Of a stretch of DNA of 64,000 nt, positions 54,001 to 64,000 are shown piece by piece. Position numbers: made by a program. Positions within the stretch are counted from its first letter, which is position 1, and each line of letters opens with the position of its first letter. This stretch comes from Pocillopora damicornis (taxonomy: Eukaryota): contig NW_020845872.1 in NCBI RefSeq assembly GCF_003704095.1, positions 1 through 64,000 of the forward strand, in the 5' to 3' direction.

Positions 54001-57000
54001 AGTACCCCCGTGTGACAAATAAAATTTAATATCCAAAGAATCTTGGACAAACATCTGACCATCTCTTGAAATATCAGCAAAATCTGGGTCGGTCGAGAAA
54101 CAGTGATAAATGAATGACAAAAAATTTTTTGTTTTTCAACAGTTCATCAACAACAAAGTTTCTGGAAAGTGACGTCAGCAACGAGCAAGTCCGAGAACTA
54201 GACGAGTTGATCTTGAATTGGTTGAGCGAGAATAAAGAGCAAAATGTCTTTTATCCACATGCCAGGGTTTAAAACTCTATTCGAGCGAATGTTTTCATAG
54301 ATTTAAGAAACGTTCAGTTACGTCGTTAACAAAGATGCCATCTTCTAGCGTTGAAGATTATACCAAATTTGATGGATTGCTGTCAGGGCTACAGTGCATT
54401 TTGAAACAAAGATAAAGTTTAAGCCCGTTCTACAAGTCCTTCTGTAGGATTTGCACGTCTCAGTGGTTCATAAAGAATGAGAGACAGTGTTTCCGTTTAC
54501 CACGAAGAGTAGTTATGCTGTTGAGTGTTTGTTATCGTTTCTGTTGTGATAACTCAAATTATTTATTAGTACAAAGGCGATACAAGACCCAATAAAAATC
54601 ATAACTTCAAACTTGTGTTCTGCCGAGGGTTTTAACAATCATGATATAAGAAACATTATCAAAGTCTTTCTTTGTATAGGAATTTTGATTACTTGGCAAA
54701 TTTTACGTATCATAAACAGCCCAATCAGAATTCATGAAAGATCGCCTCTTTCTCGGAATCCTAAATTCCGAGAATGTGATTGAGTTTCCTAGAAACGTGA
54801 GTAACGCAGGAGCCCGTTACTTTGGTAATGGGCCCCTGACTGACGTCAATGTTTAATATGCCTCGATAACCAATCAGCTTGCAGATTAATCGCTTCACAG
54901 TAAGGTCATTCTGTCATGTAACTTGTTTTCCGCTCTAGAGTGAAAACTTTCTCAGAAATCTGTCGTGTGTTTCACGCAGTTAGTAGTTAACATTTGGTTT
55001 GGTTGAAAGTCAACAACTAAAGGAATTAGGCAGGCTGCCGCATTAAGCTCTAATTTCGTCACTGCATGGTTTACGATATTAGCAGGTTGAACGTTCATGG
55101 CTAGTTTCAACTTCAGCTCGAGAGGTGATCATTATCATCAACTAAGCGCACAAATTCAGCAAAAGTTTCAGGATAATCGTCAAACGAGTGAAGTATTTGA
55201 TCGGAAGAATCGATGGAGAAAGGAAATTGAAGACTTAGTGAAGACCCTTTACCCGTCATGTCGACTCGTTCTTTCCGGCTCGTCCGCAAACGGGTTTGGC
55301 AGCATTCATAGTGATATCGACCTGGTTTTGTGCTTTGAAGGGGCAGCAGTGACTGGACCTTCCATGTTGAGGAGAATAGAGTCGCTTTTTGCGAGTAACC
55401 GTCGTCGTTTTCAAACAGAGGTAGTACCACACCTTATGTGAGTTGCATAATTTTTATAAATAATACGAGCAATCAGGAAAATATCCGCTCGTATAATGCA
55501 TAAAACCATGAGATAAGGGACTTGTTATTCCCCTGCCATTTCATTTTATAATATTTTGACTTCCAGTTTTTTTAAATACATACGGTCTAATCTTGTGCAC
55601 TGTATGGATCACATAACGCGTGTGTGAAAGACGAAGGCAACACAAACGAAACCATTAAGAGTTCTTGATGACTTATAAAAGAAACTGTTGCCCCTAATAG
55701 TTCCATGCACGAAATTTCGAGCCTAAAACACGGAAACAAATAAAAGATTGAATCGTTTAGCCGGGGGCCATTTTGTTACTCCGCTTTCAGTCCGCATTTT
55801 TGCCCCGTGCCATCGCATATTTTGCGGGTTCTATGGTCCTTATTTGGTGAAATGGTGTAACTGTCGAAGAGTATGTAATAGTATTTGAGCACAGCTTGAA
55901 TGTCCGCGACTAAGACAATCAGATTCCTACGTAAGATATGCATGACAAACTAGTACGTCGTGTCTTTTCCCGCGTTTTGAAACACTTTAGATTATGATTT
56001 AATTTTTTGTTTGTGGGTTTCCTCTATAAAGCATCAAAAATGACTCAGGGGGAGATCAAAGAAAAAAACTGGTTCTTCTCTTTCGTCATATTGATCAGAA
56101 TTTTTAATTCGAAGCTTCCTCAACGTGTCTTTCACTTCGGTTTCTACCGATCCCGAGGTTAGATTGTGCTTTAATCTTTAACCTAATTGGCATACGCAAG
56201 AGAATATCAAAAGTTGATGTTCTCTCGGCAAACGATATAATTTTTATTAAAACCAATTTCAAGATGGTGTCAGCGCCGAGTGAGAGATATTTTTGATTGA
56301 AAAAAAAAAACTAGACAAGTAAACATTTGATATGCAGCAGTAAATTTTTTTAAAGTCAACTTTGAATTTTGAACAATCCCCAGGTGATTCCAAACGCACG
56401 AGTTCCTATCATCAAGCTCAAAGATAGGGAGAAATCAATTGAAACTGATATCAGTGTGGAAAATTGGACCAGTGTGAGAAACGCCTTCGTTCTAAAATGT
56501 TACTCCGAGTGTGACACAAGGGTGAGACCGCTGGTCATGGTCATCAAACTGTGGGCTCAACGTGCAGGAATCACCGATGCAAAACTCAAAAGACTTGCAG
56601 GTACGAAATCTGCCGATTGTTAAAAAAGTGGCGGATTTGAGGTTGAATAAAGGGGGTTAATTTCTAGAGAAAATTTTGGTGCTGCGTGGGGGGATCTTTC
56701 AAGACAATTTGGTGTCATCAACCGAATTGACATTATAAACTGGCCACCGTAAAGAGTTTCTTTTGCTAACGCTTGCAACGTCAGCTATATTAAACTCTTA
56801 ACGGTGGTCAATTTACATTATCAACGCAGTTGATAAAACCACATGATCTGATGAAAGGTTGACTGGTTTGACTCGTTTACAAGCTCAATAATACAAATAA
56901 AAAAAAAGTCCCTTCATTTTAGTTTAGTTATGTGTAGCTTTTCACATATCACGATGCGAGTAACATATGACTGACTCTTACAAGACAGGCAGACATGTAA

Positions 57001-63000: not shown

Positions 63001-64000
63001 GGGGGAATCCCAGAAGCGGCACAGGTTTATACGAGAGATCTTAATAGTCCACATGTCTCCTCACACATAGGCCCCCAATGCTAATAAACTTGTATCAATC
63101 AGGTTATAAGTTCCAACTGCTGTCTTTATAAAAAACAAATAACAATTAAAAAAGTCTCCAAGTTTCCGTGATAAAGGTTAATTCAAGTTCTTGTCAGGAG
63201 TCGCGGGTAGCGTTAGAGTATAGTTTGAATTACTCCAAGATACAACACAATACCCCCTTCGCTTACAGTCTTCTCATCCTTCTCTTCCGACCTTCAACAA
63301 TGTTAAATGCTTCTAGATACATTACCTGGAAGCCTCTTAAACTTGGCTCCGATAATTTGAGCCTTTTTCGCCCATAGTTTGATCACAATTGTCAACGGCT
63401 TCACTCTTAAGTCACACTCAGAGTAGCATTTTAATAGGAAGGCGTTCGTCAAGCTGCTCGAATTCTCCAAAGTGATGTCCGTTTCAAACGAGTTCTCTTT
63501 ATCCTTGAGGATAATTATGGGGTCTTTGGCATTTGAAACAACCTGAAAGTAGTTACAATTACTCTCTGTTAACTACGCCTTAGTTCTGTGGCCGTTTTAT
63601 AGATGTGCCATGTTCAATTATGTAGAATTACACTTTCTCGTTCTTTCAACGCTCTTTTACCCTTCTCTCCCCCCTCTCAAGGCAAAAATTGTAGATTGCA
63701 TTTTGTTTACTATATACAAACAGGAGCAGCTGGTTCAAACTGCTTCTTTTTTCTAATTGGATCACCAGGAGATCTACAATCTTCCGCCCAAATATCGTTC
63801 GATCCAAACAGCCACCATGAATGAGTATTTCTGGATTATACCAGAACGTGATATATAAAAAACAAACAGTGGATGCGGATATTTATGCGTGGCAATCATC
63901 TCAAGCTAAAAGAGATACCAAATTAAATTATCAATTGGTATAACAAACACTGATACCTCTGTTTCAAAGCGGCGAGGCTTGCGACTGAAAAGCGATTCGA

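What the first reader, a model, noticed from the sequence alone, without database searches (positions are those of the whole stretch)
56384..63542. Non-canonical NTP pocket and nucleotide-recognition motif: tail chemistry may not be plain poly(A) or poly(U)
The family motif 'NDA..GTLSSY' reads TDAKLKRLAGF (A), TNARLHRLAGF (B) and IGAKFKRLPGF (C), so the phosphate-binding Ser and base-stacking Tyr become Gly-Phe. The 'NT' dyad is 'NA' in all three. The recognition loop is EDPSDGGNVTR, EDPTDEGNVTR and EDPTDGGNVTR. It lacks the His that confers UTP preference in Cid1/TUT4/7 (EDPFxxxHN) and also differs from GLD-2 (EEPFDGTNTAR). The catalytic GS and DxD..D residues are intact in A and B. Precedent exists for unusual specificities in this family (RDE-3/MUT-2 poly(UG), fungal CutA C/U tails).
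Basis: partly seen in the sequence, partly recalled or inferred. Interest (0 to 1): 0.7.

Follow-up and report, generated by a model that had tools for sequence, protein, structure and literature searches.

The report
Three GLD-2-like RNA-tailing enzyme paralogues
The window's end holds three old, tandem copies of a small GLD-2-type RNA-tailing enzyme gene whose nucleotide pocket really does carry several unusual residues, but the part that normally sets base choice still looks like that of a poly(A)-adding enzyme.

Summary
Three paralogous three-exon genes (A +, B -, C -; C's first exon runs off the window) encode core-only (about 325-329 aa) non-canonical nucleotidyltransferases. Their best solved relatives are mammalian and C. 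elegans GLD-2. All quoted strings are in the DNA. The Gly of 'G-F' is a codon split by the second intron, and Phe is the first full codon of exon 3.

Opposite residues named in papers:
- Ribose-contact Thr is Ala in all three.
- Gamma-phosphate Ser is Gly.
- Stacking Tyr is Phe.
- Loop-anchoring Phe is Ser/Thr.
- rnGLD-2 Asn321/Asp322 equivalents vary (T-D, T-N, I-G).

Tyr-to-Phe lies within the family's published 'hydrophobic platform' rule, since mtPAP and MEAT1 use Phe. That Ser is Asn in mtPAP. The recognition loop has GLD-2 length, no inserted His, and the acid-x-x-acid-x-x-Asn plus Arg cluster that a published rule assigns to poly(A) polymerases. Only Thr-to-Ala breaks a superfamily rule.

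Synonymous sites are saturated while replacement changes stay low, so the variant pocket is old and maintained. I could not test how common these substitutions are among invertebrate homologues (protein searches closed), nor model the pocket (joined-exon step left out).

The parts
55097..55420 (+). Copy A, exon 1 (108 codons): N-terminal helix and NTase core with G-S and D-x-D
   Evidence: ATG preceded by an in-frame stop at 55088-55090; donor GT at 55421. Pfam PF22600 5.5e-16. Aligned to TUT7, URT1 and GLD2 across the G-S/D-x-D region.
56384..56600 (+). Copy A, exon 2 (72 codons plus the first base of the split Gly codon): third catalytic Asp, N-A dyad (56480-56485), phosphate-helix Lys, T-D-A
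   Evidence: Acceptor AG at 56382-56383 and donor GT at 56601. Pfam PF22600 1.6e-11. PDB GLD2 4.6e-13.
57139..57587 (+). Copy A, exon 3 (completes Gly, then Phe 57141-57143; recognition loop 57456-57488; stop at 57585-57587)
   Evidence: Acceptor AG at 57137-57138. Pfam PAP_assoc 2.6e-06. PDB GLD2 3.2e-22.
60516..60827 (-). Copy B, exon 1 (104 codons) with G-S and D-x-D
   Evidence: Pfam PF22600 4.6e-15 on the enclosing ORF.
60140..60356 (-). Copy B, exon 2: third Asp, N-A dyad (60255-60260), Arg in place of the phosphate-helix Lys, T-N-A
   Evidence: Pfam PF22600 1.1e-10.
59300..59748 (-). Copy B, exon 3: Gly completion, Phe (59744-59746), recognition loop 59399-59431, stop
   Evidence: Pfam PAP_assoc 4.6e-09.
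63957..64000 (-). Copy C, last 14 codons of exon 1; the rest, including G-S and D-x-D, lies beyond the window
   Evidence: tblastn with exon 1 of B: 84.6% identity over 13 residues.
63326..63542 (-). Copy C, exon 2: third Asp kept, N-A dyad (63441-63446), Asp where rnGLD-2 has Val264, I-G-A
   Evidence: PDB GLD2 8.1e-08 and Cid1 1.8e-07.
62465..62916 (-). Copy C, exon 3: Gly completion, Phe (62912-62914), recognition loop 62564-62596, stop
   Evidence: Pfam PAP_assoc 1.8e-08.

Best explanation
The region is a cluster of three anciently duplicated genes, arranged A then B and C on the opposite strand. They encode minimal, catalytic-core-only terminal nucleotidyltransferases of the GLD-2/TENT2 clade.

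Shown: the fold family, the intact catalytic residues, the GLD-2-length recognition loop without His, the variant pocket residues, and long-term purifying selection.

Inferred:
- They are active template-independent RNA 3'-tailing enzymes that most likely still prefer ATP (short or long A tails).
- They rely on partner proteins for RNA choice, because no RNA-binding module is encoded.
- The lineage-fixed changes re-tune nucleotide affinity, processivity or sugar discrimination rather than switch the base. These changes are ribose-contact Thr to Ala, gamma-phosphate Ser to Gly, stacking Tyr to Phe, and loop-anchor Phe to Ser/Thr.
For: Family:
- Pfam MTPAP-like_central on exons 1 and 2 and PAP_assoc on exon 3 in every copy seen.
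- Exon-by-exon PDB searches put mammalian GLD2 first for exons 2 and 3 of A (4.6e-13, 3.2e-22) and exon 2 of C (8.1e-08), with C. elegans GLD-2 next for exon 3.

Catalysis:
- G-S and D-x-D in A and B align to those of GLD2, TUT7 and URT1.
- The third Asp and the Asn opposite rnGLD-2 Asn284 are invariant.
- Lys/Arg is kept opposite Lys312, as the superfamily rule requires (PMC4857005 passages).

Base choice:
- The loop aligns gaplessly to GLD2's, with no residue at the place where a His insertion gives UTP use (PMC4931116 sections 9 and 13).
- It has the acid-x-x-acid-x-x-Asn cluster plus Arg, predicted to be PAP-type (PMC5689010 discussion passages).

Phe as stacking residue occurs in mtPAP and MEAT1 (PMC7470959 section 21; PMC3479196 section 14).

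Selection: per exon and pair, pS is 0.72-0.92 (saturated) against pN 0.17-0.29. A34, the split-codon Gly, Phe and N-V-T-R are identical in all three copies.

No RNA-binding domain: the proteins start about 15 residues before, and end within a few residues of, the crystallised GLD2 core. An in-frame stop lies just upstream of A's ATG.
Against: - The Ser/Thr that contacts the ribose hydroxyls is Ala in all three copies, against the stated superfamily rule (PMC4857005). The 5 of 5 active enzymes displayed have Thr.
- In rnGLD-2, alanine substitutions of nearly all putative ATP-contact residues lowered poly(A) polymerase activity (PMC7470959 section 21). Three of the positions named there (Asn321, Asp322 in B and C, Ser330) are not conserved in these proteins.
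- The residue opposite Asp322, equated there with the adenine-N6 contact of yeast Pap1, differs between the copies (Asp, Asn, Gly).
- The His rule has exceptions: U-adding enzymes without His (bioRxiv 10.1101/422972 discussion passage). A GLD-2 paralogue, NPOL-1, has broad specificity (PMC7988573 section 20).
- No activity, expression or full-length structural evidence was obtained.
Confidence: 0.5

Rival explanations
1. The remodelled pocket changes what is added. This would mean either relaxed base choice (mixed A/U/G/C tails, as in NPOL-1 or TENT4) or relaxed sugar discrimination, because the Thr hydroxyl that reads the ribose 2'/3'-OH is gone. The three copies could differ from each other at the adenine-N6-equivalent position.
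For: - Thr to Ala in all three copies, opposite Cid1 T172. PMC3479196 section 13 says this residue, together with N171, is likely important for telling UTP from dUTP.
- An engineered Cid1 variant carrying changes at N171/T172 plus H336R accepts sugar-modified NTPs, although the individual contributions are unresolved (PMC13702519 section 11).
- The Asp322 equivalent is Asp, Asn and Gly in A, B and C (PMC7470959 section 21).
- The loop-anchor Phe is Ser/Thr. F332 is said to couple the loop to helix 4 (PMC13702519 section 11).
- Specificity is not reliably predictable from the loop alone (bioRxiv 10.1101/422972 discussion; PMC7988573 section 20).
Against: - The Asn of the dyad, the main ribose/base sensor in Cid1, is kept.
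- The loop cluster is of the PAP type and of GLD-2 length (PMC5689010).
- Overall similarity is clearly highest to A-adding GLD-2 enzymes. A review calls overall similarity the best current predictor (PMC7988573 section 20).
- No paper was found that reports the effect of a Thr-to-Ala change alone. A search for 'T172A' plus 'Cid1' returned 0 papers.
Confidence: 0.27
2. One or more copies, C first of all, are weak or inactive enzymes that act as regulators or scaffolds, like the inactive N-terminal module of TUT4/7 or fly Trf4-2.
For: - Several NTP-contact positions are replaced. Alanine mutants of such positions lower activity in rnGLD-2 (PMC7470959 section 21).
- C has Asp opposite Val264, whose mutation diminished activity (PMC7470959 section 23), and Ile-Gly opposite Asn321-Asp322.
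- C's G-S and D-x-D cannot be seen, because exon 1 is off the window.
- Inactive family members are listed in a review table (Trf4-2 'Inactive'; PMC7988573 section 4 passage).
Against: - G-S, D-x-D and the third Asp are intact in A and B, and the third Asp in C, although synonymous sites are saturated. Catalytic residues would not be expected to persist that long without use.
- The displayed inactive TUT4 module has neither residue of the dyad, whereas these proteins keep the Asn.
Confidence: 0.18
3. They make free oligo- or cyclic nucleotides as signals, like OAS, cGAS or bacterial CD-NTases, rather than RNA tails.
For: - They share the Pol-beta NTase core and the PAP/OAS1-type substrate-binding domain architecture (PMC4857005 passages).
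- Exon 1 of A gives a weak hit to a PADLOC oligonucleotide-cyclase model (E 1.6e-04, 19.2 bits).
Against: - That hit covers only the generic G-S/D-x-D region and is far weaker than the TENT match to the same exon (5.5e-16).
- Exons 2 and 3 of all copies give no PADLOC hit (0 of 5).
- No Mab-21 or OAS family appears among the Pfam hits at E up to 0.1.
- All PDB hits with E below 0.001 are RNA-tailing enzymes.
Confidence: 0.03

Closest known systems
GLD-2 / TENT2 cytoplasmic poly(A) polymerases (rat and mouse GLD2, PDB 6lbj/6lbk; C. elegans GLD-2, 4zrl/5jnb)
   Same: - Best sequence match for exons 2 and 3.
- Same catalytic motifs.
- Same recognition-loop length, with no inserted His and with the Asn and Arg kept.
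- No RNA-binding domain.
   Different: - Core only (about 325-329 aa), without the long N-terminal regions of the worm and fly enzymes.
- Ala for the dyad Thr, Gly-Phe for Ser330-Tyr331, Thr/Ile for Asn321, and Ser/Thr for the loop Phe.
- Val-Thr where GLD2 has Thr-Ala after the loop Asn.
Cid1 / TUT4 / TUT7 / URT1 terminal uridylyltransferases
   Same: - Same two-domain architecture and same catalytic residues.
- E-D-P at the start of the loop, as in TUT4.
- In copy C, two Lys on the phosphate helix, as in Cid1.
   Different: - No His at the UTP-selecting place (PMC4931116 sections 9 and 13).
- Much weaker similarity on exon 3 (TUT4 5.5e-07, Cid1 0.012).
- No zinc knuckles or second module.
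Mitochondrial poly(A) polymerase (MTPAP; chicken 5a2v/5a30, human 3pq1)
   Same: A proven A-adding enzyme that, according to PMC7470959 section 21, has Phe (Phe372) at the stacking position and a non-Ser residue (Asn371) before it. This resembles the Gly-Phe seen here.
   Different: - Distant in sequence (exon 3: 8.3e-05).
- Its alignment was not among the five printed, so the Phe correspondence rests on the paper and not on a call.
CutA (C/U-adding), MUT-2/RDE-3 (poly(UG)) and NPOL-1 (broad specificity)
   Same: Family members that show tail chemistry can depart from A or U (PMC5689010 passages; bioRxiv 10.1101/422972 passages; PMC7988573 section 20). CutA is a PDB hit (2.9e-10 on exon 2).
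   Different: - CutA's specificity is attributed to an acid-x-x-Asn-x-x-Arg loop cluster (PMC5689010), which these proteins do not have.
- MUT-2 and NPOL-1 possess a His (bioRxiv 10.1101/422972 discussion), which is absent here.
- No MUT-2 or NPOL-1 sequence came back from any tool, so no direct comparison was made.

Membership tests
Non-canonical nucleotidyltransferases (TENT / Cid1 family; NTase domain inserted in a PAP/OAS1-type substrate-binding domain) | h-G-[GS] and [DE]-h-[DE]-h motifs plus a third carboxylate (PMC4857005; bioRxiv 10.1101/422972 section 6) | tested here: met
   A and B have G-S, D-I-D and the third Asp. In C only the third Asp is visible, because exon 1 is off the window.
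Non-canonical nucleotidyltransferases (TENT / Cid1 family) | PAP-associated / central domain | tested here: met
   Exon 3 of A, B and C matches PF03828 at 2.6e-06, 4.6e-09 and 1.8e-08, all above the curated cut-off. PF22600 matches exons 1 and 2.
Non-canonical nucleotidyltransferases (TENT / Cid1 family) | Three further NTP-binding residues: Ser/Thr in the last NTase helix, Lys/Arg in SBD helix 2, and a hydrophobic residue in SBD helix 3 (PMC4857005 conclusion passage) | tested here: not met
   Lys/Arg is met (K, R, K) and the hydrophobic residue is met (Phe). Ser/Thr is not met: Ala stands in all three copies opposite Thr of GLD2, CutA, TUT4 and Cid1. So 2 of the 3 residues conform. The paper itself notes Ser or Cys in FAM46 proteins, so the rule is not absolute.
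GLD-2 / TENT2 subfamily | Closest similarity to GLD-2 proteins rather than to other TENT subfamilies | tested here: met
   Against solved structures only: exon 3 of A gives GLD2 at 3.2e-22 and C. elegans GLD-2 at 1.4e-17, with the next family (TUT4) at 5.5e-07.
GLD-2 / TENT2 subfamily | Recognition loop without the inserted His; strictly conserved Asn kept (PMC4931116 sections 9 and 13) | tested here: met
   Gapless alignment of the loop to GLD2's. Asn and Arg are kept in all three copies.
GLD-2 / TENT2 subfamily | ATP preference / poly(A) polymerase activity | not testable with these tools
   No activity data. This is inferred only from the loop type and overall similarity.
GLD-2 / TENT2 subfamily | One-to-one orthology with TENT2 in the source species | not tested
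   The species is unknown and the rest of the genome was not available. With three paralogues at 55-72% identity, these could be 'GLD2-like' side branches. PMC10284499 (passages) mentions such branches for a sea anemone and a comb jelly.
Terminal uridylyltransferases (Cid1, TUT4/7 type) | His in the recognition loop contacting uracil O4 | tested here: not met
   No His in any of the three loops, and no extra residue relative to GLD2.
OAS / cGAS / CD-NTase signalling synthases | Match to Mab-21, OAS1_C or CD-NTase models | tested here: not met
   No such Pfam family at E up to 0.1. In PADLOC there is only a 19-bit hit of exon 1 of A to a cyclase model, and nothing for exons 2 and 3.

The most novel reading that the evidence does not exclude
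An old clade of core-only GLD-2-like enzymes has given up the Ser/Thr that reads the ribose hydroxyls and the Ser that holds the gamma-phosphate. As a result it would add something other than plain ribo-A tails: mixed-base tails, or nucleotides with an altered or missing 2'-OH. The three paralogues would differ in base preference through the Asp/Asn/Gly position that corresponds to the adenine-N6 contact of yeast poly(A) polymerase.
Probability: 0.15. Interest if true: 0.65.

Novelty: new member of a known kind. Interest (0 to 1): 0.3.

Why it matters
Nucleotide choice in terminal nucleotidyltransferases is still poorly predictable from sequence (PMC7988573 section 20). Natural enzymes that vary the ribose- and phosphate-contact residues while keeping a GLD-2-type base-recognition loop would help to separate the contributions of those elements.

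If the pocket changes prove silent, the finding is simply a lineage-specific expansion of small GLD-2-like poly(A) polymerases. That would bear on cytoplasmic polyadenylation in that animal, but it would not be surprising.

Tried and rejected
1. Full-length modelling. An AlphaFold2 run on exon 3 alone with the three-paralogue alignment gave a mean pLDDT of 61, with residues 79-120 (the recognition loop) below 50. I judged it unusable and ran no fold search on it.

2. ESM Atlas with exon 3 of A. It returned only eukaryotic PAP_assoc clusters (Nematoda, Arthropoda, Chordata). It gave no alignment and no taxon for the window, so it does not show how common the substitutions are.

3. The residues of GLD2 between the two aligned blocks (chain 209-214 of 6lbj) were never printed by a tool. 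The Ser-to-Gly correspondence rests on equal spacing plus the residue names Ser330 and Tyr331 in PMC7470959.

4. Mapping to rnGLD-2 numbering uses chain index +116 for exon 2 and the start of exon 3. This is checked on Val264, Asp279 (Ala in 6lbj), Asn284, Lys312, Asn321 and Asp322. In the loop region the paper's Glu434 and Thr441 fit +117, so I give no numbers there beyond those two.

5. CD-NTase/OAS reading: rejected.

6. A virus-like or transposon origin for the cluster. I scanned the 70 open frames of 85 aa or more that lie before the cluster (83 in the whole window), and 150 of the 168 open frames of 58-84 aa below 55000. All Pfam hits were cellular families: MGC-24, LSM, GST, profilin, EGF, fibrinogen C, PAN, TPR, cyclophilin and one EB_dh match at 7.5e-04. 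There was no reverse transcriptase, integrase, capsid or other viral family at E up to 0.001. The 18 shortest frames were dropped by the 150-sequence limit.

7. The bacterial/archaeal genome-contig scan was not used, because it cannot hold animal homologues.

8. A literature search for the effect of the Thr-to-Ala change ('T172A' plus 'Cid1') found 0 papers.

9. A search for lineage-specific GLD-2 expansions listed 3 papers. None of the passages I read describes these pocket residues.
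Full report
**What is there**

The last 9 kb of the window holds three paralogous genes of the non-canonical nucleotidyltransferase (TENT/Cid1) family.

I read the gene models directly from the DNA.
- Copy A (+): exons 55097-55420, 56384-56600 and 57139-57587.
- Copy B (-): exons 60827-60516, 60356-60140 and 59748-59300.
- Copy C (-): exons 63542-63326 and 62916-62465, plus only the last 14 codons of its first exon (64000-63957), which is cut by the window end.

Every intron is GT..AG, and its position and phase are the same in all copies. 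A tblastn of the separate exon peptides against the window finds these three copies and no others.

A and B are tail to tail, with a 12-bp microsatellite between their 3' ends. C lies upstream of B on the same strand.

The predicted proteins are short. By adding exon lengths, A has 329 residues and B has 325. An in-frame stop lies just upstream of A's ATG.

I did not build, search or fold a joined-exon protein. This leaves the geometry of the nucleotide pocket, which is formed by residues from all three exons, unmodelled.

The splice models are still supported without a join. On rat GLD2 (6lbj), the exon-2 match ends at query 67 = chain 208 and the exon-3 match starts at query 1 = chain 215. 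That leaves six residues on each side: five exon-2 residues plus the split-codon Gly. On URT1 (6l3f), exon 1 ends at 101 = 129 and exon 2 starts at 3 = 138. That is nine residues against eight.

**Check of the observation**

- Exon 2 ends ..KRLA (A), ..HRLA (B) and ..KRLP (C).
- The next codon is split (g | gt) and reads Gly.
- The first whole codon of exon 3 is Phe.
- N-A is invariant.
- The loops read EDPSDGGNVTR, EDPTDEGNVTR and EDPTDGGNVTR.
- G-S and D-x-D are intact in A and B, and the third Asp is intact in all three.
Neither can I, because it lies beyond the window.

**Family**

Pfam places MTPAP-like_central (PF22600) on exons 1 and 2 and PAP_assoc (PF03828) on exon 3, above the curated cut-offs.

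Against all PDB chains, the best matches are as follows.
- Exon 3 of A: mammalian GLD2 (3.2e-22), then C. elegans GLD-2 (1.4e-17). TUT4 (5.5e-07), URT1, CutA, TUT7, mtPAP, TUT1 and Cid1 follow far behind.
- Exon 2 of A: GLD2 at 4.6e-13.
- Exon 2 of C: GLD2 at 8.1e-08.

Among solved structures these proteins are therefore GLD-2-clade proteins.

**What the unusual residues correspond to**

I used the printed alignments and the residue names in papers. Chain index +116 reproduces the paper's Val264, Asp279 (Ala in the 6lbj mutant), Asn284, Lys312, Asn321 and Asp322.

| Reference residue | A | B | C | Source |
|---|---|---|---|---|
| Dyad Thr (rnGLD-2 Thr291 by the +116 index; Cid1 T172) | Ala | Ala | Ala | |
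| rnGLD-2 Lys312 | Lys | Arg | Lys | |
| rnGLD-2 Asn321 | Thr | Thr | Ile | |
| rnGLD-2 Asp322 | Asp | Asn | Gly | |
| rnGLD-2 Ser330 | Gly | Gly | Gly | spacing argument; |
| rnGLD-2 Tyr331 | Phe | Phe | Phe | |
| Loop Phe (Cid1 F332 position) | Ser | Thr | Thr | |
| rnGLD-2 Val264 | Val | Ile | Asp | |

Further points on the mapping:
- The Asn of the dyad is kept in all three copies.
- N-T stands at the dyad in all five different active enzymes whose alignments were printed: mammalian GLD2, C. elegans GLD-2, CutA, the TUT4 catalytic module and Cid1.
- Tyr stands opposite the exon-3 Phe in GLD2, C. elegans GLD-2 and TUT4.
- After the loop Asn, these proteins have Val-Thr-Arg where GLD2 has Thr-Ala-Arg.

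What the papers say about these residues:
- In Cid1 the gamma-phosphate is held by K193, K197, S211 and S90.
- The base and ribose pack on Y212.
- N171 and T172 bind the ribose 2'-OH, with T172 reaching the 3'-OH through water. [quoted passage not shown]
- F332 is proposed to tie the recognition loop to helix 4. F332A and F332L keep substantial activity, while F332D is severely impaired (PMC13702519, section 11, read in full).

**How unusual is this?**

1. The published superfamily rule asks only for a hydrophobic residue at the stacking position: Val in Pap1, Tyr in Cid1, Leu in FAM46C (PMC4857005, passages). Phe is used by chicken mtPAP (Phe372; PMC7470959, section 21) and by MEAT1 (PMC3479196, section 14 passage).

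2. The preceding Ser is Asn in mtPAP (PMC7470959, section 21). It is not one of the superfamily's conserved NTP-binding residues.

3. Lys/Arg on the phosphate helix is kept.

4. The recognition loop has exactly GLD2's length. It has no residue at the place where a His insertion turns human Gld2 from ATP to UTP use. It keeps the Asn that is 'strictly conserved' (PMC4931116, sections 9 and 13, read in full). Its acid-x-x-acid-x-x-Asn cluster with a following Arg is the type that PMC5689010 (discussion passages) assigns to poly(A) polymerases.

What does break a stated rule is Ala at the Ser/Thr position (PMC4857005, conclusion passage). T441A in rnGLD-2, the position where these proteins have Val, had no effect (PMC7470959, section 21).

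**Evidence against an easy 'plain poly(A)' reading**

- In rnGLD-2, alanine mutants of almost all putative ATP-contact residues lowered activity (PMC7470959, section 21).
- Several U-adding enzymes lack the His, and some His-bearing enzymes add purines (bioRxiv 10.1101/422972, discussion passage).
- NPOL-1, a GLD-2 paralogue, has broad specificity (PMC7988573, section 20 passage).
- The position equated with the adenine-N6 contact of yeast Pap1 differs among the three copies.

**Age and constraint**

Per exon and per pair, the proportion of synonymous differences is 0.72-0.92, which is saturated. The proportion of non-synonymous differences is 0.17-0.29. Amino-acid identity is 55-72%.

The duplications are therefore old and all three copies, C included, have been under purifying selection. 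The Ala, the Gly-Phe and the N-V-T-R are identical in all three, so the variant pocket predates the duplications and has been kept. That argues for function and against decay. It also makes a pseudoenzyme reading less likely for A and B, whose catalytic residues are intact.

**Best explanation and rivals**

I rank the readings as follows.
- Most likely (0.5): active, partner-dependent, core-only GLD-2-like enzymes that still prefer ATP. Their pocket would be re-tuned in nucleotide affinity, processivity or sugar reading.
- Main rival (0.27): the changes alter what is added, either mixed bases or relaxed 2'-OH discrimination.
- Weaker rival (0.18): reduced or lost activity, for C above all. C has Asp opposite Val264, a residue whose mutation diminished rnGLD-2 activity (PMC7470959, section 23).
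- Signalling-nucleotide synthase (0.03): little support. Only the generic NTase core of exon 1 gives a 19-bit hit to a PADLOC cyclase model, and exons 2 and 3 give none. No Mab-21 or OAS family appears in Pfam.

**Surroundings**

The rest of the window looks like ordinary animal genes. I scanned the 70 open frames of 85 aa or more that lie before the cluster, and 150 of the 168 frames of 58-84 aa below 55000. Apart from one EB_dh match at 7.5e-04, the Pfam hits were MGC-24, LSM, GST, profilin, EGF, fibrinogen C, PAN, TPR and cyclophilin.

None of these frames matched a reverse transcriptase, integrase, capsid or other viral family at E up to 0.001. The virus-like stretch that the operators mention was therefore not seen by this screen. 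Nothing of that kind adjoins or contains the three genes.

The four 100-base N runs were left as they are.

**What stayed unchecked**

- How common the substitutions are in invertebrate TENT2/GLD2-like homologues.
- The source species.
- Expression.
- Any full-length structural model. The exon-3-only model was poor.

**Verdict**

This is a new member (possibly a distinct small clade) of a known enzyme family, with a real but modest anomaly at the ribose-contact position. Interest: 0.3.

Noticed in passing
window 58135-58274: A 12-bp microsatellite of 11.7 copies with 95% matches lies in the spacer between the convergent 3' ends of copies A and B. It produces long repetitive open frames on both strands that are not genes.
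   Followed up: partly
window 63326-63542 (copy C, exon 2): Copy C is the most divergent in exon 2. It has Asp where rnGLD-2 has Val264 (Val in A, Ile in B), Ile-Gly opposite Asn321-Asp322, and Ser for the Trp kept in A and B. Even so, its reading frame and splice sites are intact and its pN is like that of the others.
   Followed up: partly
window 22794-23579 and 25809-26573 (+): Two open frames carry glutathione S-transferase / CLIC-like N- and C-terminal domains (GST_N_3 at 7e-11; GST_C_2 at 1.3e-03). They are probably exons of one or two GST-family genes.
   Followed up: no
window 3287-3685 (+): An open frame with a PAN/Apple domain (3.5e-05).
   Followed up: no
window 1-54000 (frames not individually located): Pfam hits to MGC-24 sialomucin, LSM, profilin (two frames), EGF, fibrinogen C-terminal domain, TPR and cyclophilin (two frames). 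This is an ordinary animal gene neighbourhood. No viral or transposon family was found among the 220 open frames scanned, so the virus-like stretch mentioned by the operators was not found by this screen.
   Followed up: partly
window 1104-1203, 2611-2710, 21224-21323, 31875-31974: Four runs of exactly 100 N (assembly gaps or masking), left untouched.
   Followed up: no
window 55113-55430 (-): A 105-aa open frame lies antisense to exon 1 of copy A. It has no family match of its own and is most likely a by-product of the coding strand's composition.
   Followed up: no
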